Shown here: piece after piece, positions 7,451 through 60,884 of the stretch
Layout: each line of letters opens with the position of its first letter
Numbering within the stretch: position 1 is the first letter of the stretch
From: Escherichia coli
GTDB taxonomy: Bacteria > Pseudomonadota > Gammaproteobacteria > Enterobacterales > Enterobacteriaceae
Direction: 5' to 3' (one strand)
Assembly: GCF_041886205.1 (NCBI RefSeq)
Contig: NZ_CP169029.1
DNA: 64,000 nt
The notes under the pieces: model-generated
The model's database searches: none
The model's input: the letters and a program-made list of their open reading frames with translations, nothing else
Told to the model about the DNA's origin: nothing
Translations under genes and position numbers: made by a program

Positions 7451-7486
7451 AATAAAAAAGGCCCCCCGATTTGGGAGGCCTTATTG
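7451..7486 (-). terminator. pheA attenuator terminator hairpin (minus strand)
   Basis: On minus strand ggcctcccaaatcggggggcc followed by ttttttatt, between pheL stop and pheA start. Confidence 0.7.
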
Positions 7487-7528
7487 TTCGTCTTCGCATT
7501 CTGTTTCACACGACGAAACGCCTCCCAT

Positions 7529-7576
7529 TCAGGGGAAGGTAAAAAAGAATGCGAAGAAAAACGGTGTGTGTTTCAT
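7529..7576 (-). CDS. pheL: pheA leader peptide (15 aa, 7 Phe codons), translated here as MKHTPFFFAFFFTFP
   Basis: Manual translation of the minus strand; not in the ORF track because it is below the length cut-off. Confidence 0.85.
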   Translation of the reverse strand: MKHTPFFFAFFFTFP

Positions 7577-7631
7577 GTTTGTTTCCTTAAGTGACTTTAG
7601 TACAGTACCCGTACTGTTTTCACGCTGTCAA

Positions 7632-9029: not shown

Positions 9030-9163
9030 GACGTTTTGACTTTCCTCAAAATGTAATACGGGAGATTCTCTGTTCCTGCTCCCGGTTAAGACCAGCTACA
9101 ATAGCACACTATATTAAACGGCAAAGCCGTAAAACCCCAACGATAAACGAAGAAGCAGTATAT

Positions 9164-10872: not shown

Positions 10873-10934
10873 CCTAAAGAATCAAGACGATCCGGTACGC
10901 GTGATTTTCTTTTCACATTAATCTGGTCAATAAC

Positions 10935-10964
10935 CTTGAATAATTGAGGGATGACCTCATTTAA
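10935..10964 (+). promoter_or_regulatory. Sigma-32 heat-shock promoter of clpB
   Basis: cttgaa ... cctcatttaa, matching the CTTGAA-N13-15-CCCCATNT class, about 40-65 nt upstream of clpB. Confidence 0.6.
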
Positions 10965-11001
10965 TCTCCAGTAGCAACTTTGATCCGTTATGGGAGGAGT
11001 T

Positions 11002-13575
11002 ATGCGTCTGGATCGTCTTACTAATAAATTCCAGCTTGCTCTTGCCGATGCCCAATCACTTGCACTCGGGCACGACAACCAATTTATCGAACCACTTCAT
11101 TTAATGAGCGCCCTGCTGAATCAGGAAGGGGGTTCGGTTAGTCCTTTATTAACATCCGCTGGCATAAATGCTGGCCAGTTGCGCACAGATATCAATCAGG
11201 CATTAAATCGTTTACCGCAGGTTGAAGGTACTGGTGGTGATGTCCAGCCATCACAGGATCTGGTGCGCGTTCTTAATCTTTGCGACAAGCTGGCGCAAAA
11301 ACGTGGTGATAACTTTATCTCGTCAGAACTGTTCGTTCTGGCGGCACTTGAGTCTCGCGGCACGCTGGCCGACATCCTGAAAGCAGCAGGGGCGACCACC
11401 GCCAACATTACTCAAGCGATTGAACAAATGCGTGGAGGTGAAAGCGTGAACGATCAAGGTGCTGAAGACCAACGTCAGGCTTTGAAAAAATATACCATCG
11501 ACCTTACCGAACGAGCCGAACAGGGCAAACTCGATCCGGTGATTGGTCGTGATGAAGAAATTCGCCGTACCATTCAGGTGCTGCAACGTCGTACTAAAAA
11601 TAACCCGGTACTGATTGGTGAACCCGGCGTCGGTAAAACTGCCATCGTTGAAGGTCTGGCGCAGCGTATTATCAACGGCGAAGTGCCGGAAGGATTGAAA
11701 GGCCGCCGCGTGCTGGCGCTGGATATGGGCGCGCTGGTGGCTGGGGCGAAATATCGCGGTGAGTTTGAAGAACGTTTAAAAGGCGTGCTTAACGATCTTG
11801 CCAAACAGGAAGGCAACGTCATCCTGTTTATCGACGAATTACATACCATGGTCGGCGCGGGTAAAGCTGATGGCGCAATGGACGCCGGAAACATGCTGAA
11901 ACCGGCGCTGGCGCGTGGTGAATTGCACTGCGTAGGTGCCACGACGCTTGACGAATATCGCCAGTACATTGAAAAAGATGCTGCGCTGGAACGTCGTTTC
12001 CAGAAAGTGTTTGTTGCCGAGCCTTCTGTTGAAGATACCATTGCGATTCTGCGTGGCCTGAAAGAACGTTACGAATTGCACCACCATGTGCAAATTACTG
12101 ACCCGGCAATTGTTGCAGCGGCGACGTTGTCTCATCGCTACATTGCTGACCGTCAGCTGCCGGATAAAGCCATCGACCTGATCGATGAAGCAGCATCCAG
12201 CATTCGTATGCAGATTGACTCAAAACCAGAAGAACTCGACCGACTCGATCGTCGTATCATCCAGCTCAAACTGGAACAACAGGCGTTAATGAAAGAGTCT
12301 GATGAAGCCAGTAAAAAACGCCTGGATATGCTCAACGAAGAACTGAGCGACAAAGAACGTCAGTACTCCGAGTTAGAAGAAGAGTGGAAAGCAGAGAAAG
12401 CATCGCTTTCTGGTACGCAGACCATTAAAGCGGAACTGGAACAGGCGAAAATCGCTATTGAACAGGCTCGCCGTGTGGGGGACCTGGCGCGGATGTCTGA
12501 ACTGCAATACGGCAAAATCCCGGAACTGGAAAAGCAACTGGAAGCCGCAACGCAGCTCGAAGGCAAAACTATGCGTCTGTTGCGTAATAAAGTGACCGAT
12601 GCCGAAATTGCTGAAGTGCTGGCGCGTTGGACTGGGATTCCGGTTTCTCGCATGATGGAAAGCGAGCGCGAAAAACTGCTGCGTATGGAGCAAGAACTGC
12701 ACCATCGCGTTATTGGTCAGAACGAAGCGGTTGATGCGGTATCTAACGCTATTCGTCGTAGCCGTGCGGGGCTGGCGGATCCAAATCGCCCGATTGGTTC
12801 ATTCCTGTTCCTCGGCCCAACGGGTGTGGGGAAAACAGAGCTTTGTAAGGCGCTGGCGAACTTTATGTTTGATAGCGACGAGGCGATGGTCCGTATCGAT
12901 ATGTCCGAGTTTATGGAGAAACACTCGGTGTCTCGTTTGGTTGGTGCGCCTCCGGGATATGTCGGTTATGAAGAAGGTGGCTACCTGACCGAAGCGGTGC
13001 GTCGTCGTCCGTATTCCGTCATCCTGCTGGATGAAGTGGAAAAAGCGCATCCGGATGTCTTCAACATTCTGTTGCAGGTACTGGATGATGGGCGTCTGAC
13101 TGACGGGCAGGGGAGAACGGTCGACTTCCGTAATACGGTTGTCATTATGACCTCTAACCTCGGTTCCGATTTGATTCAGGAACGCTTCGGTGAACTGGAT
13201 TATGCGCACATGAAAGAGCTGGTGCTCGGTGTGGTAAGCCATAACTTCCGTCCGGAATTCATTAACCGTATCGATGAAGTGGTGGTTTTCCATCCGCTGG
13301 GTGAACAGCACATTGCGTCGATTGCGCAGATTCAGTTGAAACGTCTGTACAAACGTCTGGAAGAACGTGGTTATGAAATCCACATTTCTGACGAGGCGCT
13401 GAAACTGCTGAGCGAGAACGGTTACGATCCGGTCTATGGTGCACGTCCTCTGAAACGTGCAATTCAGCAGCAGATCGAAAACCCGCTGGCACAGCAAATA
13501 CTGTCTGGTGAATTGGTTCCGGGTAAAGTGATTCGCCTGGAAGTTAATGAAGACCGGATTGTCGCCGTCCAGTAA
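11002..13575 (+). CDS. clpB: Chaperone/disaggregase ClpB (two AAA+ modules)
   Basis: 857-aa product [18 protein letters not shown]...; two Walker A motifs ([16 protein letters not shown]); RBS gggaggag. ORF track starts 12 nt upstream at an in-frame ATG. Confidence 0.95.
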
Positions 13576-14018: not shown

Positions 14019-15560
<1,542 letters not shown>

Positions 15561-15645
15561 CCTTAAAGAAGCGTACTTTGCAGTGCTCACACAGATTGTC
15601 TGATAGAAAGTGAAAAGCAAGGCGTCTTGCGAAGCAGACTGATAC

Positions 15646-15721
15646 GTCCCCTTCGTCTAGAGGCCCAGGACACCGCCCTTTCACGGCGGTAACAGGGGTT
15701 CGAATCCCCTAGGGGACGCCA
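15646..15721 (+). tRNA. gltW: tRNA-Glu (anticodon UUC) in the 16S-23S spacer
   Basis: GTCCCCTTCGTCTAGAGGCCCAGGACACCGCCCTTTCACGGCGG...GGGGACGCCA; anticodon loop CTTTCAC; 76 nt including CCA. Confidence 0.95.
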
Positions 15722-15914
15722 CTTGCTGGTTTGTGAGTGAAAGTCACCTGCCTTAATATCTCAAAACTCATCTTCGGGTGATGTTTGAGATATTTGCTCT
15801 TTAAAAATCTGGATCAAGCTGAAAATTGAAACACTGAACAACGAAAGTTGTTCGTGAGTCTCTCAAATTTTCGCAACACGATGATGAATCGCAAGAAACA
15901 TCTTCGGGTTGTGA

Positions 15915-18818
<2,904 letters not shown>

Positions 18819-18911
18819 ACAACGCCGAAGATGTTTTGGCGGATTGAGAGAAGATTTTCAGCCTGATACAGATTAAATCAGAACGCAGAAGCGGTCTGAT
18901 AAAACAGAATT

Positions 18912-19031
18912 TGCCTGGCGGCCTTAGCGCGGTGGTCCCACCTGACCCCATGCCGAACTCAGAAGTGAAACGCCGTAGCGCCGATGGTAGTGTGGGGTCT
19001 CCCCATGCGAGAGTAGGGAACTGCCAGGCAT
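18912..19031 (+). rRNA. rrfG: 5S ribosomal RNA
   Basis: TGCCTGGCGGCC...GGGAACTGCCAGGCAT, 120 nt. Confidence 0.95.
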
Positions 19032-27685: not shown

Positions 27686-28375
27686 TTACTCACTCTCTGC
27701 CGGTAATACTGGCATCCAGTCAATCGGCGTCTCGCCATGTTGTTCCAGCCACTGATTTGCCAGCACAAAATGGTTACAGCCAAAGAATCCACGATGCGCA
27801 GAAAGCGGTGACGGATGCGGTGCTTTCAGTACGTGATGGCGTTGCTTATCTATAATCGCCCCTTTCTTTTGCGCATGCGATCCCCACAACAAAAACACCA
27901 CGCCTTCGCGATGCTGGTTAATCAGGCTGATGACTTTATCGGTGAAGGTCTCCCAGCCGAGGCTGGCATGGGAATGCGCCTGACCTGCGCGTACCGTCAA
28001 CACAGTATTGAGTAGCAGAACGCCCTGACGCGCCCAGCTTTCAAGATAACCATGATTAGGGCGGGTGAAGCCCGGAATAGTATTTTCCAGCTCTTTATAC
28101 ATATTCAGCAGTGACGGAGGAGTGGCGATTCCGGGGCGAACGGAAAATGCCAGCCCATGCGCCTGTCCCGGTCCGTGATAAGGATCCTGGCCGAGAATCA
28201 CCACTTTAACGTCACCCAACTCGGTAAAGCGGAACGCGTTAAAGACATCTTTTTGTGGCGGATAGATAGTGACGCCGGACTGCCGCTCGCTGGCGACGGT
28301 CTGAAGGGTATTAAGAAAATAGGGTTGCTTCTTCTCTTCAGCCAGCACGTCATGCCAGGTTAATTCGTTAGCCAT
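27686..28375 (-). CDS. ung: Uracil-DNA glycosylase
   Basis: 229-aa [23 protein letters not shown]... with GQDPYHGP motif. Confidence 0.96.
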
Positions 28376-28504
28376 CTCGCTCTCCTGCGAATCTTCAATC
28401 CGCCTAGCTTAACTGCTTCTTTCTACAGAACAAAATCATGCTCATTTTTAGACTTAAACGAGTGCAAAAAAATGTAAATTGGTAAAATTTCACACCTGCA
28501 TAAG

Positions 28505-28571
28505 TTGATGTAAAACAATAAAATCCATTTGCGACCATACTTGATGTGTGGTTTTTGTTGATTTAAATCAA
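28505..28571 (+). promoter_or_regulatory. Two FNR/CRP-family boxes upstream of grcA
   Basis: ttgatttaaatcaa (28558..28571, perfect TTGAT-N4-ATCAA) and ttgatgtaaaacaa (28505..28518). Confidence 0.6.
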
Positions 28572-28678
28572 AGATTCAAGGGTGTTTGAGGAGTATATAT
28601 ACACTCAAGCAACAATGGTTTTACCAATTGGCCGCGACAGGCTGAACAAATCAAATAATTTTGCCGGGGAGGCATCAC

Positions 28679-29062
28679 ATGATTACAGGTATCCAGATTA
28701 CTAAAGCCGCTAACGACGATCTGCTGAACTCTTTCTGGCTGCTGGACAGCGAAAAAGGCGAAGCACGTTGCATCGTTGCGAAAGCAGGTTTTGCAGAAGA
28801 TGAAGTGGTTGCAGTAAGCAAACTGGGTGACATTGAGTACCGTGAAGTTCCAGTAGAAGTGAAACCAGAAGTTCGCGTTGAAGGTGGTCAGCACCTGAAC
28901 GTTAACGTTCTGCGTCGTGAAACTCTGGAAGATGCAGTTAAGCATCCGGAAAAATATCCGCAGCTGACCATCCGTGTATCCGGATATGCAGTTCGCTTTA
29001 ACTCTCTGACTCCGGAACAGCAACGCGACGTTATTGCTCGTACCTTTACTGAAAGCCTGTAA
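28679..29062 (+). CDS. grcA: Autonomous glycyl radical cofactor GrcA (YfiD)
   Basis: 127-aa product [22 protein letters not shown]... with C-terminal glycyl-radical motif (RVSGYAV). Confidence 0.94.
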
Positions 29063-29084
29063 GGCTTAAGTAGCAAGTTACTAA

Positions 29085-29116
29085 GCGGAAGAGGGCGACT
29101 TCTTCCGCTTTTTTTC
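29085..29116 (+). terminator. grcA rho-independent terminator
   Basis: gcggaagagggcgacttcttccgc hairpin then tttttttc. Confidence 0.65.
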
Positions 29117-29117
29117 G

Positions 29118-29705
29118 TTAATAGAAAATGCGTACCGCGCAATAGACCAGCAACAGTGCAAGCACGATATTCAACTGGCGACCATACTGGCGAAACAATC
29201 GCTGAAACAGATGCCCCGCCAGCGCCCAGCACACATTGCCAAACGTCCCAATCATCGCCAGCAAAACGCTGACGCCAACTACCCAGCTTAACGCCTGTGT
29301 TTGCGGCAGAACAAATGTCGACAGTGCCGTAACACCGTACAAAATGATTTTGACGTTCACAAACTGCAAAGCAAAGCTGGCCCAAAAACTGATTGGTTTT
29401 GTCTGAAGTCCATCTTCCTTTGTTGGACTGGTAGCGATTTTCCACGCCAGCCAGACAATATATGCCGCTCCTGCCCAACTCAACAGATGCACTGCTGCCG
29501 GGTCGATAACAGCCAGTGAAAACGAAATGCCCGCACACAGCAACATGACGATTAAAAATCCCAGACTCATCCCTGCCAGCACGCGGGTACTCTGACGAAA
29601 TCCGTGCGTTGTAGCTGAGCTAAGGGCGAGAATATTGTTCGGTCCTGGCGTCATGGCGGTAATCAGGGTGTAAGTCCAAAAAGCACTTAAAAGGGTCGGT
29701 GTCAC
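29118..29705 (-). CDS. eamB: Cysteine/O-acetylserine exporter (LysE/RhtB family)
   Basis: 195-aa membrane ORF of the LysE family; position next to yfiE. Confidence 0.88.
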   Translation of the reverse strand: MTPTLLSAFWTYTLITAMTPGPNNILALSSATTHGFRQSTRVLAGMSLGFLIVMLLCAGISFSLAVIDPAAVHLLSWAGAAYIVWLAWKIATSPTKEDGLQTKPISFWASFALQFVNVKIILYGVTALSTFVLPQTQALSWVVGVSVLLAMIGTFGNVCWALAGHLFQRLFRQYGRQLNIVLALLLVYCAVRIFY

Positions 29706-30746: not shown

Positions 30747-30844
30747 GCCGGATGCGGCGTGAACGCCTTATCCGGCCTACAAGATCGTGCAAATTCAATA
30801 TATTGCATGAGCCACGTAGGCCTGATAAGCGTAGCGCATCAGGC
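30747..30844. repeat. BIME: two inverted REP elements
   Basis: gccggatgcggcgtgaacgccttatccggcctac (30747..30780) and inverted copy gtaggcctgataagcgtagcgcatcaggc (30816..30844). Confidence 0.65.
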
Positions 30845-36373: not shown

Positions 36374-37329
36374 TGAAGCAACTTTGGTTTGCCATGTCAT
36401 TAGTGACAGGTAGCCTGTTATTCTCTGCTAACGCCTCGGCCACTCCCGCGTCCGGGGCGTTATTACAGCAGATGAACCTGGCCAGTCAGTCACTGAATTA
36501 CGAGCTGTCATTCATCAGCATCAATAAACAGGGTGTTGAGTCTCTGCGTTATCGACATGCACGCCTCGATAACCGTCCTCTTGCACAATTGTTGCAAATG
36601 GATGGCCCGCGCCGGGAAGTGGTACAGCGCGGCAATGAAATCAGCTATTTTGAACCGGGACTTGAACCGTTCACGCTTAATGGCGATTACATTGTTGATT
36701 CTCTGCCATCGCTCATCTATACCGATTTCAAACGCCTTTCTCCTTACTACGACTTCATCTCCGTCGGGCGCACGCGTATTGCTGATCGTCTTTGCGAAGT
36801 CATTCGCGTGGTTGCCCGAGATGGTACACGCTACAGCTACATCGTGTGGATGGACACTGAATCGAAATTACCGATGAGGGTTGATCTCCTTGATCGCGAT
36901 GGTGAAACGCTGGAACAATTTCGCGTGATTGCTTTTAACGTCAATCAGGATATCAGCAGCAGTATGCAGACGTTGGCGAAGGCAAATTTGCCGCCGTTGC
37001 TTTCTGTTCCTGTAGGTGAAAAAGCTAAATTCAGCTGGACGCCAACCTGGTTGCCACAGGGTTTTAGCGAAGTTTCCAGTAGTCGACGTCCGCTACCGAC
37101 GATGGACAACATGCCTATCGAATCACGTCTCTATTCCGACGGATTATTCAGCTTCTCGGTAAACGTTAACCGCGCTACGCCATCGAGCACCGATCAGATG
37201 TTGCGCACCGGACGCAGAACCGTCAGTACAAGCGTACGTGATAACGCCGAAATCACCATTGTCGGTGAACTGCCGCCGCAAACGGCGAAACGCATTGCCG
37301 AGAATATTAAGTTCGGGGCAGCGCAATGA
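36373..37329 (+). CDS. rseB: Sigma-E regulatory protein RseB (periplasmic)
   Basis: 318-aa ORF with signal peptide; coupled to rseA (1-nt overlap). Confidence 0.93.
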   Translation: MKQLWFAMSLVTGSLLFSANASATPASGALLQQMNLASQSLNYELSFISINKQGVESLRYRHARLDNRPLAQLLQMDGPRREVVQRGNEISYFEPGLEPFTLNGDYIVDSLPSLIYTDFKRLSPYYDFISVGRTRIADRLCEVIRVVARDGTRYSYIVWMDTESKLPMRVDLLDRDGETLEQFRVIAFNVNQDISSSMQTLAKANLPPLLSVPVGEKAKFSWTPTWLPQGFSEVSSSRRPLPTMDNMPIESRLYSDGLFSFSVNVNRATPSSTDQMLRTGRRTVSTSVRDNAEITIVGELPPQTAKRIAENIKFGAAQ

Positions 37330-37805
37330 TCAAAGAGTGGGCTACCGTCGTCTCCTGGCAAAACGGGCAGGCGCTGGTCAGTTGTGATGTTAAAGCCTCA
37401 TGCAGCAGCTGCGCTTCACGCGCCGGTTGCGGTAGCCGCGTGTTGAATAAACTTGGCCCGCAAACCACGCATACCATTGTCGTACCCTGTGATGAGCCGT
37501 TAGTGCCGGGGCAAAAAGTGGAATTGGGGATCGCCGAAGGCAGCCTGCTTAGCTCCGCATTACTGGTTTATATGTCGCCGCTGGTGGGATTATTCCTCAT
37601 CGCTTCGCTATTTCAGCTACTCTTTGCTTCTGACGTCGCAGCATTATGTGGTGCGGTCCTCGGCGGTATTGGCGGGTTCCTGATTGCGCGTGGCTACTCG
37701 CGTAAGTTTGCTGCCCGGGCAGAATGGCAACCGATCATCTTAAGCGTGGCATTGCCGCCTGGCCTTGTGCGATTTGAAACATCTTCGGAAGACGCGAGCC
37801 AGTGA
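37326..37805 (+). CDS. rseC: Sigma-E regulatory protein RseC (SoxR-reducing system family)
   Basis: 159-aa ORF with Cys-rich N-terminus and two TM segments; 4-nt overlap with rseB. Confidence 0.9.
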   Translation: MIKEWATVVSWQNGQALVSCDVKASCSSCASRAGCGSRVLNKLGPQTTHTIVVPCDEPLVPGQKVELGIAEGSLLSSALLVYMSPLVGLFLIASLFQLLFASDVAALCGAVLGGIGGFLIARGYSRKFAARAEWQPIILSVALPPGLVRFETSSEDASQ

Positions 37806-38002
37806 TTTCACTGGCTTTGTTGCATTTTGCATAACAAATGCGAGGACGTTTCCAGATACCACAATCCATACGGTATGAACATTTCCTCGCCTCAATGTTG
37901 TAGTGTAGAATGCGGCGTTTCTATTAATACAGACGTTAAGCTCAGAACAGCGACTTCTAAAAGCCTGGTTAACCGGGCATTAAGGCACAATAATCATACT
38001 TT

Positions 38003-39802
<1,800 letters not shown>

Positions 39803-40838: not shown

Positions 40839-40937
40839 TTATTTATGAGATAAATCTCCCGTGGCTAACGACATCCCCCGTCGTTGTGTATAGAATATTC
40901 CCCCGAAGTTTAAGGTTGGCACCTCCAGGTTGCCACG

Positions 40938-41031
40938 GCACACGAAACAGCGTTGGTCCCCATATACCGCTAAACTGAAACTGCAGCGAAGCAGTTAGCA
41001 GAGCCATGTATATCAGGTCTGTTTCGTGTGC
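40938..41031 (+). promoter_or_regulatory. rnc leader: 13-bp perfect inverted repeat able to form a long-range stem, consistent with the RNase III autoregulatory cleavage site
   Basis: gcacacgaaacag (40938..40950) and ctgtttcgtgtgc (41019..41031) read directly. Confidence 0.5.
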
Positions 41032-41034
41032 TGA

Positions 41035-42647
<1,613 letters not shown>

Positions 42648-58111: not shown

Positions 58112-59302
58112 TCACAGCACCTTATGCGGGCCAAAGCATTCGTAATGAATGTTTTCCTGCTTCACGCCCAGATCCACTAACTGTTTCGCGGCAAACTGCA
58201 TGAAGCCAACCGGGCCGCAGAGATAGAACTGCATTGTCGGATCGCTGAACGCACCTTCCAGTTTGCTCAAATCCATCAGACCTTCGCTATCAAACTGACC
58301 TTTAGCGCGATCGGCTTCGCTCGGCTGACGATACCAGGTGTGCGCGGTAAAGCGCGGCAGTGACTGCCCCAGTTCCTTAACTTCATCGGCAAAGGCGTGA
58401 ACATCGCCATTTTCTGCCGCATGGAACCAGTTCACTTGTGCTGTGTGGCCTGCTTTTGCCAGCGTGTCGAGCATTGCCAGCATTGGCGTTTGACCAACAC
58501 CGGCAGAGATTAACGTCACTGGTGTGTCATCTGCGACAGCCATAAAGAAATCACCTGCCGGAGCGGCCAGTTTCACGACATCGCCAACATTGGCGTGATT
58601 GTGCAACCAGTTGGATACCTGCCCACCCTCTTCGCGTTTCACCGCAATACGATAGCCTTTGCCATCCGGTTTGCGAGTCAAAGAGTACTGACGAATTTCC
58701 TGATGCGGGAAACCTTCCGGCTTCAGCCAGACGCCGAGATATTGCCCCGGACGGTATTCTGCCACTGCACCACCGTCGACCGGCTCCAGTTCGAAGCTGG
58801 TGATAAGCGCGCTGCGCGGTGTTTTAGCCACAATGCGGAAATCGCGAGTACCTTCCCAACCACCGGCTTTGCTGGCGTTTTCGTTATAGATTTCCGCCTC
58901 GCGATTGATAAATACATTAGCCAGTACACCATAGGCTTTACCCCACGCGTCCAGCACTTCCTGCCCCGGGCTGAACATTTCGTCCAGCGTTGCCAACAGG
59001 TGTTCACCGACGATGTTGTACTGTTCCGGTTTGATCTGGAAACTGGTGTGCTTCTGCGCGATTTTTTCTACCGCTGGCAGCAGCGCAGGCAGGTTTTCAA
59101 TATTACTGGCGTAGGCGGCAATAGCGTTAAACAGGGCTTCACGTTGATCGCCATTACGCTGGTTACTCATGTTAAAAATTTCTTTGAGTTCTGGGTTATG
59201 AGTAAACATACGGTCGTAGAAATGGGCGGTTAACTTTGGCCCTGTTTCTACCAGTAAAGGGATGGTGGCTTTTACTGTAGCGATGGTTTGAGCGTCAAGC
59301 AT
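58112..59302 (-). CDS. hmp: Flavohemoglobin (nitric oxide dioxygenase)
   Basis: 396-aa [20 protein letters not shown]...; globin domain plus FAD/NAD reductase domain. Confidence 0.95.
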
Positions 59303-59321: not shown

Positions 59322-59352
59322 CATCTTAATTGATGTATCTCAAATGCATCTT
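59322..59352. promoter_or_regulatory. NsrR-type operator overlapping the hmp promoter
   Basis: gcatcttaattgatgtatctcaaatgcatctt, AT-rich imperfect palindrome aagatgcatttgagatacatc on the hmp strand. Confidence 0.5.
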
Positions 59353-59630
59353 ATAAAAAATAGCCCTGCAATGTAAATGGTTCTTTGGTGTTTTTCAGAA
59401 AGAATGTGATGAAGTGAAAAATTTGCATCACAAACCTGAAAAGAAATCCGTTTCCGGTTGCAAGCTCTTTATTCTCCAAAGCCTTGCGTAGCCTGAAGGT
59501 AATCGTTTGCGTAAATTCCTTTGTCAAGACCTGTTATCGCACAATGATTCGGTTATACTGTTCGCCGTTGTCCAACAGGACCGCCTATAAAGGCCAAAAA
59601 TTTTATTGTTAGCTGAGTCAGGAGATGCGG

Positions 59631-60884
59631 ATGTTAAAGCGTGAAATGAACATTGCCGATTATGATGCCGAACTGTGGCAGGCTATAGAGCAGGAAAAAG
59701 TACGTCAGGAAGAGCACATCGAACTGATCGCCTCCGAAAACTACACCAGCCCGCGCGTAATGCAGGCGCAGGGTTCTCAGCTGACCAACAAATATGCTGA
59801 AGGTTATCCGGGCAAACGCTACTACGGCGGTTGCGAGTATGTTGATATCGTTGAACAACTGGCGATCGATCGTGCGAAAGAACTGTTCGGCGCTGACTAC
59901 GCTAACGTCCAGCCGCACTCCGGCTCCCAGGCTAACTTTGCGGTCTACACCGCGCTGCTGGAACCAGGTGATACCGTTCTGGGTATGAACCTGGCGCATG
60001 GCGGTCACCTGACTCACGGTTCTCCGGTTAACTTCTCCGGTAAACTGTACAACATCGTTCCTTACGGTATCGATGCTACCGGTCATATCGACTACGCCGA
60101 TCTGGAAAAACAAGCCAAAGAACACAAGCCGAAAATGATTATCGGTGGTTTCTCTGCATATTCCGGCGTGGTGGACTGGGCGAAAATGCGTGAAATCGCT
60201 GACAGCATCGGTGCTTACCTGTTCGTTGATATGGCGCACGTTGCGGGCCTGGTTGCTGCTGGCGTCTACCCGAACCCGGTTCCTCATGCTCACGTTGTTA
60301 CTACCACCACTCACAAAACCCTGGCGGGTCCGCGCGGCGGCCTGATCCTGGCGAAAGGTGGTAGCGAAGAGCTGTACAAAAAACTGAACTCTGCCGTTTT
60401 CCCTGGTGGTCAGGGCGGTCCGTTGATGCACGTAATCGCCGGTAAAGCGGTTGCTCTGAAAGAAGCGATGGAGCCTGAGTTCAAAACTTACCAGCAGCAG
60501 GTCGCGAAAAACGCTAAAGCGATGGTAGAAGTGTTCCTCGAGCGCGGCTACAAAGTGGTTTCCGGCGGCACTGATAACCACCTGTTCCTGGTTGATCTGG
60601 TTGATAAAAACCTGACCGGTAAAGAAGCAGACGCCGCTCTGGGCCGTGCTAACATCACCGTCAACAAAAACAGCGTACCGAACGATCCGAAGAGCCCGTT
60701 TGTGACCTCCGGTATTCGCGTGGGTACTCCGGCGATTACGCGTCGCGGCTTCAAAGAAGCAGAAGCGAAAGAACTGGCTGGCTGGATGTGTGACGTGCTG
60801 GACAGCATCAATGATGAAGCCGTTATCGAGCGCATCAAAGGTAAAGTTCTCGACATCTGCGCACGTTTCCCGGTTTACGCATAA
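59631..60884 (+). CDS. glyA: Serine hydroxymethyltransferase
   Basis: 417-aa product [18 protein letters not shown]...; PLP-binding [13 protein letters not shown] motif. Confidence 0.96.

What the first reader, a model, noticed from the sequence alone, without database searches (positions are those of the whole stretch)
28505..28571. Two FNR-type boxes upstream of grcA (yfiD), one a perfect TTGAT-N4-ATCAA
ttgatttaaatcaa is a perfect FNR/CRP-family palindrome about 108 bp upstream of the grcA start, with a second near-consensus box (ttgatgtaaaacaa) 53 bp further upstream. This fits the strong anaerobic and acid induction of the glycyl-radical spare-part protein GrcA. Whether the distal site activates or represses cannot be told from sequence.
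Basis: partly seen in the sequence, partly recalled or inferred. Interest (0 to 1): 0.25.

Follow-up and report, generated by a model that had tools for sequence, protein, structure and literature searches.

The report
Known tandem FNR sites, grcA promoter
The two boxes are real and are the well-studied pair of binding sites for the oxygen sensor FNR in front of the E. coli grcA (yfiD) gene; the near one switches the gene on without oxygen and the far one damps it, so this is textbook biology, not a discovery.

Summary
The window is E. coli chromosome. TTGATTTAAATCAA (28558-28571) is the only perfect TTGAT-N4-ATCAA in 64 kb. TTGATGTAAAACAA (28505-28518) lies 53 bp upstream, centre to centre. 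Both sit in the 303-bp ung-grcA intergenic region.

They are the published FNR I (-40.5) and FNR II (-93.5) sites of the yfiD promoter (Green 1998; Marshall 2001). Myers 2013 lists exactly these two 14-mers under an FNR ChIP-seq peak. The proximal one has the highest score in the part of that table I read. The transcription start used by Park 2013 maps to window 28605, which gives -40.5 and -93.5 exactly.

Mutating or deleting it raises fully anaerobic expression (PMC10208419, whose primers mutate this very box).

New here:
- Both boxes are unchanged in 8 divergent E. coli alleles, while the spacer between them varies.
- 62 of 66 Enterobacterales promoters (65 sampled genomes plus the window) keep a distal box at 52-53 bp, nearly always with a defective 3' half-site.
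- Pasteurellaceae show a different spacing of 42-44 bp.

Verdict: already known, low interest.

The parts
28505..28518 (.). Distal FNR box, FNR II (TTGATGTAAAACAA), centred at -93.5. Lower affinity, down-regulating site.
   Evidence: PWM score 15.90 bits. Myers 2013 Table S6 lists it as 2714632, score 13.87, at an FNR ChIP-seq peak. The yfiD-m primer m097 mutates exactly this box (TTGAT>TTTAT, AACAA>AAAAA). It is unchanged in 8 E. coli alleles. The exact 31-mer around it is present in 5101 of 5426 genomes. A distal box is present at 52-53 bp in 62 of 66 Enterobacterales promoters.
28558..28571 (.). Proximal FNR box, FNR I (TTGATTTAAATCAA), centred at -40.5. Class II activating site.
   Evidence: PWM score 21.16 of 21.80 bits. 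Myers Table S6 lists it as 2714579, PatSer 17.25, the highest score in the part of the table read. The Myers main table gives yfiD -40.5, activated. The core bases TTGA/TCAA are 100% conserved in 58 stacked Enterobacterales promoters.
28519..28557 (.). 39-bp spacer between the boxes. Its length is conserved but its sequence varies. It contains the inverted repeat GACCATAC/GTGTGGTT (28533-28553) and a T-run (28552-28556) that abuts FNR I.
   Evidence: Spacer length is fixed in 56 of 66 promoters and one base shorter in 6. No significant covariation supports a hairpin. The role of the T-run as an alpha-CTD docking or bending tract is inference.
28594..28599 (+). -10 element TATATA (-11 to -6 relative to the literature +1). 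There is no recognisable -35, as expected for a class II activator-dependent promoter.
   Evidence: TATA at 28594-28597 is 98-100% conserved in 58 species. The sigma-70 two-hexamer scan found no complete promoter in 28300-29200. The Myers sigma-70 ChIP peak at 2714546 maps to window 28604.
28605..28605 (+). Transcription start (+1) of grcA, as used in the literature. The 5' UTR is 74 nt.
   Evidence: Derived from Park 2013: the ArcA site at 2714524-2714555 is described as -10/+22, with the mapping window x = 2743150 - K-12 (U00096.2) coordinate. That mapping is validated by the exact match of both Myers box coordinates.
28595..28626 (-). Predicted three-repeat ArcA site overlapping -10/+22 (Park 2013), under an ArcA ChIP peak.
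   Evidence: supplement files 1, 4, 7 of PMC3798270. The window sequence at these coordinates is the reverse complement of the listed TGGTAAAACCATTGTTGCTTGAGTGTATATAT.
28613..28629 (.). PdhR-like palindrome CAATGGT-TTT-ACCAATT, centred at about +17.
   Evidence: Read from the sequence. 67-97% conserved per column across 58 species. PdhR repression of yfiD is documented (Wyborn 2002 as cited). Assigning PdhR to this box is my inference from the known AATTGGT-N3-ACCAATT consensus.
28679..29062 (+). grcA (yfiD) coding sequence, 127 aa, autonomous glycyl radical cofactor.
   Evidence: TIGR04365, 233.9 bits, cut-off 170.
29083..29110 (+). Intrinsic terminator of grcA (12-bp stem followed by a T-run).
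27686..28375 (-). ung (uracil-DNA glycosylase), the divergent neighbour. It defines the 303-bp intergenic region 28376-28678.

Best explanation
This is the grcA (yfiD) promoter of E. coli, with its published tandem FNR architecture.

When oxygen is scarce, the [4Fe-4S] FNR dimer fills the near-perfect, high-affinity proximal site at -40.5. From there it activates RNA polymerase as a class II activator at a promoter that has a -10 but no -35. As active FNR rises further under full anaerobiosis, a second dimer fills the weaker distal site at -93.5, five helical turns upstream on the same face, and damps the activation. Expression therefore peaks under microaerobic conditions, when oxygen-damaged pyruvate formate-lyase needs the GrcA spare part. 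ArcA and PdhR sites around +1 add redox and pyruvate inputs.

Shown here: the sequences, their positions, their PWM strength, their identity with the published sites, and their conservation.

Taken from the literature: FNR occupancy, the signs of regulation, and the microaerobic peak.

Inferred: that the conserved defect in the distal half-site is what sets the affinity difference.
For: Sequence and statistics.

Identity with K-12: the intergenic region differs from MG1655 at only 3 positions, none inside a box.

Published PWM and ChIP-seq data list exactly these two 14-mers. The FNR ChIP peak at 2714605-7 maps to window ~28543-45, between the boxes.

Geometry: +1 at 28605 gives -40.5 and -93.5, matching Green 1998 and Marshall 2001 as cited.

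Sign of the distal site: yfiD-m carries point mutations in this box (primer m097) and yfiD-P1 carries the proximal box only. Both gave much higher anaerobic output than the weak yfiD-WT, and WT is reported to be more active microaerobically. Synthetic tandem FNR promoters are sharply repressed when the upstream site lies between -85 and -95 (Barnard 2003 as summarised).

Regulation: yfiD is FNR-activated in RNA-seq (files 8, 11, 12) and induced on the anaerobic-to-microaerobic shift.

Conservation: the boxes are unchanged in 8 divergent E. coli alleles while 9 spacer positions vary. 62 of 66 Enterobacterales promoters keep a distal box at 52-53 bp. The distal 3' half-site is nearly always defective, usually AACAA or AACAT instead of ATCAA. 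The proximal box stays near consensus.
Against: Nothing contradicts it.

Limits:
- The three primary papers (PMID 9767578, 11169114, 11932447) were not available, so their content is taken from titles and from papers that cite them.
- No experiment exists for this particular strain. It has a rare G at -48 (28557) next to the proximal box where K-12 has A.
- The molecular mechanism of the distal repression is described as unresolved and as not involving alpha-CTD.
Confidence: 0.95

Rival explanations
1. The distal box is a second activating site: the upstream FNR dimer recruits alpha-CTD and acts together with the proximal one, as in many tandem CRP/FNR promoters.
For: Upstream FNR does activate at many positions in synthetic tandem promoters. 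53 bp puts both dimers on the same DNA face. Sequence alone cannot give the sign.
Against: The Green 1998 title says 'downregulation ... by FNR occupying a site at -93.5'. Mutating or removing this exact box raised anaerobic output. Positions -85 to -95 are the repressing window in synthetic promoters.
Confidence: 0.03
2. The boxes are CRP (cAMP receptor protein) sites rather than FNR sites, since the two proteins recognise related palindromes.
For: FNR and CRP are relatives, and both bind inverted repeats that contain TGA-N6-TCA.
Against: Both boxes carry TTGA/TCAA. That is the FNR-type core, not the CRP-type GTGA/TCAC (established knowledge of the two consensus sequences). The proximal box scores 21.16 of 21.80 bits on an FNR-only PWM. 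Both lie under an FNR ChIP-seq peak, and yfiD expression depends on FNR.
Confidence: 0.01
3. The distal box mainly serves the divergent ung gene, as an FNR activator or repressor site for a leftward promoter.
For: The box is 130 bp from the ung ATG in a shared intergenic region. Myers labels the sites 'yfiD/ung'.
Against: b2580 (ung) is absent from the b-number gene lists among the Myers supplements held as text (files 8, 11, 12), which do list b2579. No -10-like hexamer lies at the class II distance on the minus strand (my reading). The distal box keeps a fixed 52-53 bp distance to the grcA proximal box across genera, as expected if it works with that box.
Confidence: 0.02
4. The pair is a chance occurrence of AT-rich palindromes in an AT-rich intergenic region.
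For: A perfect box appeared at least once in 13 of 100 shuffles of the window. Boxes with up to 1 mismatch are not enriched overall.
Against: PWM rank 1 and rank 3 in 64 kb, 53 bp apart. Conservation within E. coli and across Enterobacterales while the flanks diverge. Published ChIP and mutational data.
Confidence: 0.005

Closest known systems
E. coli K-12 yfiD (grcA) promoter with FNR I at -40.5 and FNR II at -93.5 (Green, Baldwin & Richardson 1998; Marshall et al. 2001; Wyborn et al. 2002)
   Same: It is the same locus. Both 14-bp boxes, the 53-bp spacing, the -10, the +1 and the 5' UTR are identical to MG1655. The published site coordinates map one to one.
   Different: There are three strain differences in the 303-bp intergenic region, all outside the boxes: a T5 run instead of T6 at 28445-49, T instead of C at 28497, and G instead of A at 28557 (-48, touching FNR I). 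Only 14 of 5426 genomes share the exact 67-bp stretch.
Synthetic tandem FNR promoters (Barnard, Green & Busby 2003)
   Same: A consensus FNR site at about -41.5 plus a second site upstream. Strong repression occurs when the upstream site lies between -85 and -95, the range that includes -93.5.
   Different: Those are engineered melR-based promoters with two consensus sites. Here the distal site is naturally weakened, and that weakness is conserved.
Tandem CRP promoters with repression from upstream-bound CRP (Lee & Busby 2012, PMC3445967)
   Same: An upstream-bound dimer of a CRP-family factor reduces activation by the promoter-proximal dimer.
   Different: CRP repression there works through alpha-CTD. 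At yfiD, alpha-CTD is stated not to be involved.
Other E. coli promoters with two FNR boxes (cydA, ompW, ydfZ in Myers Table S6)
   Same: Two PWM-supported FNR boxes under a single ChIP peak. For cydA the listed starts are 52 bp apart (770333 and 770385).
   Different: The regulatory outcomes differ. I did not analyse those promoters here.

Membership tests
FNR-dependent class II promoter | A 14-bp inverted repeat matching TTGAT-N4-ATCAA | tested here: met
   The proximal box is perfect, scoring 21.16 of 21.80 bits on a PWM built without it. Published PatSer score 17.25.
FNR-dependent class II promoter | Site centred near -41.5 (+/-1) relative to the transcription start | tested here: met
   +1 at 28605, taken from the Park 2013 coordinates, gives -40.5. 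The distance from the box centre to the first base of the conserved TATA is 29.5 bp. Myers lists -40.5. The start itself comes from the literature; I did not map it.
FNR-dependent class II promoter | A -10 element present and a poor or absent -35 (activator dependence) | tested here: met
   No two-hexamer sigma-70 promoter in 28300-29200. A conserved TATAta sits at 28594-99.
FNR-dependent class II promoter | FNR occupancy in vivo and FNR-dependent transcription | not testable with these tools
   From the literature, for the identical K-12 sequence: an FNR ChIP-seq peak and FNR-activated RNA-seq.
yfiD-type tandem FNR architecture (microaerobic peak) | A second FNR box about 53 bp upstream (-93.5), on the same helical face | tested here: met
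   Centres at 28511.5 and 28564.5. The same spacing is seen in 56 of 66 Enterobacterales promoters, and 52 bp in 6 more.
yfiD-type tandem FNR architecture (microaerobic peak) | The distal site is weaker than the proximal site | tested here: met
   15.90 against 21.16 bits, and 13.87 against 17.25 PatSer. The distal 3' half-site is defective in most sampled species, most often AACAA or AACAT. Affinity itself was not measured.
yfiD-type tandem FNR architecture (microaerobic peak) | Occupation of the distal site lowers transcription | not testable with these tools

The most novel reading that the evidence does not exclude
The tandem FNR module may be an order-wide, selected 'band-pass' design whose details are not yet described. 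Three observations point that way:
1. The distal site is kept deliberately sub-consensus at 52-53 bp in nearly all Enterobacterales.
2. Pasteurellaceae use a variant with boxes 42-44 bp apart, at positions inferred to be about -48.5 and -92.5.
3. The spacer in Enterobacteriaceae carries a conserved inverted repeat (ACCAC...GTGGT plus a T-run) that could bind an unidentified factor or shape the DNA for contact between the two FNR dimers. The mechanism of that repression is still called unknown.
Probability: 0.2. Interest if true: 0.3.

Novelty: already known. Interest (0 to 1): 0.08.

Why it matters
For this scan it matters mainly as a calibration point.

Biologically, this promoter is the textbook example of one transcription factor both activating and damping the same promoter to give maximal expression at intermediate oxygen. 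It is already used as an engineered oxygen-responsive promoter (PMC10208419).

The comparative data gathered here add modest value. They show that the weak-distal, strong-proximal design and its 53-bp spacing are conserved across Enterobacterales, lost in the three Pantoea genomes and the one Plesiomonas genome sampled, and replaced by a different spacing in Pasteurellaceae.

Tried and rejected
- Primary papers. Green 1998, Marshall 2001, Wyborn 2002, Barnard 2003, Ogasawara 2007 and the Thomason dRNA-seq paper are not held. Two literature searches for start-site data gave nothing useful. The +1 was recovered indirectly from Park 2013.
- Spacer hairpin. I asked whether the hairpin plus T-run at 28533-28553, flagged as terminator-like, is a conserved RNA or terminator structure. 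Spacer folding energies are somewhat lower than shuffles (mean z -1.1 over 65 distinct spacer sequences). The pair-count test showed no covariation above controls (71.6% paired against 69.2% in shuffles; covariation score reached by 205 of 500 shuffles). I rejected it as a supported RNA structure and left it as an unexplained conserved inverted repeat.
- Rfam. Nothing in 28376-29150 even at E<=1.
- ung as the target of the distal box. No support.
- Coordinate slip. My first translation request used 28680 as the ATG and failed. The correct ATG is 28679.
- Proximal-box survey. I did not run a population-wide exact-match survey of the proximal box, because polymorphic sites at 28557, 28572 and 28575 leave no 28-nt invariant word for megablast.

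Full report
WHAT IS THERE. The window is Escherichia coli chromosome. The 304-nt query (window 28376-28679: the 303-bp ung-grcA intergenic region plus the A of the grcA ATG) is found once in 5425 of 5426 complete E. coli genomes. It is 100% identical to strain LHM10-1 and several other strains. RefSeq annotates the flanking genes there as ung and grcA.

In window coordinates, ung is 27686-28375 on the minus strand. grcA is 28679-29062 on the plus strand: 127 aa, NCBIfam TIGR04365 'autonomous glycyl radical cofactor GrcA', 233.9 bits against a cut-off of 170. An intrinsic terminator follows at 29083-29110.

TTGATGTAAAACAA is at 28505-28518 and TTGATTTAAATCAA at 28558-28571. Their centres are 53 bp apart, and the proximal box ends 108 nt before the ATG.

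IS IT MORE THAN CHANCE. Counting consensus matches is only weakly informative. The perfect box is unique in 64 kb, but 13 of 100 shuffles contain one. Boxes with up to 1 mismatch are not enriched: 5 seen against 2.74 expected.

The matrix was built from 61 FNR sites that lie under ChIP-seq peaks in Myers et al. 2013 Table S6, with the two yfiD sites left out. The proximal box scores 21.16 of a possible 21.80 bits and ranks first in the window. No simulated sequence reached that score. The distal box scores 15.90 bits and ranks third, with 0.215 such sites expected per 64 kb. A second site of that quality within 100 bp of the first is expected roughly 7e-4 times.

IDENTITY WITH THE PUBLISHED SITES. 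The intergenic region differs from K-12 MG1655 at three positions, none inside a box: T5 instead of T6 at 28445-49, T instead of C at 28497, and G instead of A at 28557.

Myers 2013 Table S6 lists two predicted FNR sites in 'yfiD/ung'. One is 2714579 TTGATTTAAATCAA, PatSer 17.25, the highest score in the part of the table I read. The other is 2714632 TTGTTTTACATCAA, 13.87, the reverse complement of the distal box. Both are marked as lying at an FNR ChIP-seq peak. Using the mapping window x = 2743150 - K-12 coordinate, these are exactly 28558-71 and 28505-18. The ChIP peak centre (2714605-7) maps between the boxes, and a sigma-70 peak (2714546) maps to 28604.

Park et al. 2013 place a three-repeat ArcA site at 2714524-2714555 and describe it as -10/+22. 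That fixes the +1 they used at window 28605. The box centres then fall at -40.5 and -93.5. These are the positions in the Green, Baldwin & Richardson 1998 title ('...FNR occupying a site at -93.5...') and in the Myers main table ('yfiD ... -40.5', activated).

HOW IT WORKS. The geometry is that of a class II activator-dependent promoter. A near-consensus FNR site sits 29.5 bp upstream of a conserved TATAta (28594-99). There is no -35, and the two-hexamer scan finds no complete sigma-70 promoter.

That is true, but the literature gives it. FNR bound at -93.5 down-regulates even when the proximal site is occupied. The result is higher activity under microaerobic than under fully anaerobic conditions (Marshall 2001 as cited), and yfiD is induced on an anaerobic-to-microaerobic shift.

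A direct link to this exact box comes from PMC10208419. Primer m097 for 'yfiD-m' changes TTGATGTAAAACAA to TTTATGTAAAAAAA, and 'yfiD-P1' carries only the proximal box. Both were much stronger anaerobically than the weak wild-type fragment. In synthetic tandem promoters, the upstream FNR site represses strongly between -85 and -95 (Barnard 2003 as summarised). The molecular contact behind the repression is still described as unknown and as not involving alpha-CTD.

Additional inputs are documented. ArcA acts by anti-repression of FNR, and its predicted site is at 28595-28626. PdhR represses. I infer that the conserved palindrome CAATGGT-TTT-ACCAATT at 28613-28629, centred at about +17, is its operator. 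Acid induction of yfiD is documented, but nothing examined here assigns it to the FNR boxes.

CONSERVATION (new here). Within E. coli, I took eight alleles spread from 100% down to about 92% identity. All keep both 14-bp boxes unchanged. Nine positions in the 39-bp spacer and several flanking positions vary. The 31-mer around the distal box is exact in 5101 of 5426 genomes.

Across genera, a scan of one genome per species with GrcA returned 80 loci. Of 66 Enterobacterales promoters (65 loci plus the window), 56 have a distal box of at least 9 bits at 53 bp and 6 have one at 52 bp. Four have none: three Pantoea and one Plesiomonas MAG.

The proximal box stays near consensus, with the TTGA/TCAA core 100% conserved. 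The distal box nearly always has a defective 3' half-site, usually AACAA or AACAT. A conserved weakness is what the occupancy-ordering model predicts, but that link is inference. Between the boxes, per-column conservation is only 0.3-0.7.

SIDE OBSERVATIONS. Enterobacteriaceae spacers tend to carry an inverted repeat, ACCAC...GTGGT, followed by a T-run. In the window this is 28533-28553, which was flagged as terminator-like. Folding energies are somewhat below shuffles (mean z -1.1). The pair-count test shows no covariation above controls. In the Enterobacter cloacae group the repeat sits 6 nt further upstream inside a spacer of the same length. I therefore do not support an RNA hairpin, and the repeat remains unexplained. 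The T-run next to FNR I is where alpha-CTD would dock at a class II promoter, but that too is inference.

In most of the 15 Pasteurellaceae loci sampled, the promoter looks different. Two FNR-like boxes lie 42-44 bp apart, with the upstream one usually the stronger. They are followed by a -35-like TTGAnn and an extended -10, TGaTAAAAT. If transcription starts about 7 nt after that -10, the boxes would sit at roughly -48.5 and -92.5. This is unverified.

Rfam finds nothing in the grcA region. Elsewhere in the window it finds only expected E. coli features.

VERDICT. The element is already known in detail. Interest is low. The only residual novelty lies in the comparative details above.

Noticed in passing
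window 59330-59343: TTGATGTATCTCAA is the second-best FNR PWM hit in the window (16.89 bits). It lies 28-41 bp upstream of a 396-aa minus-strand ORF (58112-59302) and is divergent from a 419-aa ORF (59625-60884). It corresponds to the glyA/hmp site TTGAGATACATCAA in Myers Table S6, which is listed as NOT under an FNR ChIP-seq peak (Fis-enriched).
   Followed up: partly
window 9036-9049: TTGACTTTCCTCAA (14.27 bits) is the reverse complement of the rluD/bamD site in Myers Table S6, which is also unbound in ChIP-seq. Of the window's four best PWM hits, all of which appear in that published table, only the grcA pair is bound in vivo.
   Followed up: partly
window 28533-28553 (spacer between the FNR boxes): Inverted repeat GACCATAC/GTGTGGTT followed by a T-run. 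An ACCAC...GTGGT repeat recurs in most Enterobacteriaceae spacers and is shifted 6 nt in the Enterobacter cloacae group. No significant covariation was found, and its function is unknown.
   Followed up: yes
window 28531-28557 and 28572-28585: The E. coli population is strongly polymorphic here. 2157 of 5425 genomes are only 90-95% identical over 118 bp. There are two main spacer haplotypes: ...GCGACCATACTTGATG... (K-12 and the window) and ...ACGACCACAATCGATG... (B-like). The boxes themselves do not vary. The window's G at 28557 (-48, touching FNR I) is uncommon, and only 14 genomes match the 67-bp stretch exactly.
   Followed up: partly
L050, L052, L053, L055, L059-L062, L067, L069, L070, L073, L080 (upstream of grcA, locus positions ~800-1000): Pasteurellaceae grcA promoters carry two FNR-like boxes 42-44 bp apart instead of 53. 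They are followed by a -35-like TTGAnn and TGaTAAAAT. The inferred positions are about -48.5 and -92.5. One species (L065, Pasteurella bettyae) has no box of 8 bits or more.
   Followed up: partly
L056, L071, L077 (Pantoea), L083 (Plesiomonas MAG): These keep a proximal FNR box (14.6-18.0 bits) but have no distal box at 52-54 bp. The prediction is simple anaerobic induction without the microaerobic peak.
   Followed up: no
window 28480-28488: An extended -10-like TGgTAAAAT lies on the plus strand just upstream of the distal FNR box, next to a perfect PdhR-type half-site AATTGGT (28477-83). It is not conserved across genera (column conservation 0.3-0.5).
   Followed up: partly
window 14019-19029, 37290-38121, 40905-41119, 53797-53944, 7452-7577, 10883-11021, 44532-44596, 30781-30823: Rfam gathering-level hits elsewhere in the window: an rRNA operon (16S, tRNA, 23S, 5S, StyR-44), AsrC antisense to rseC, rncO, GlmY, the Phe leader, RyfD, ohsC and ES036. 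All are expected for this E. coli region.
   Followed up: no
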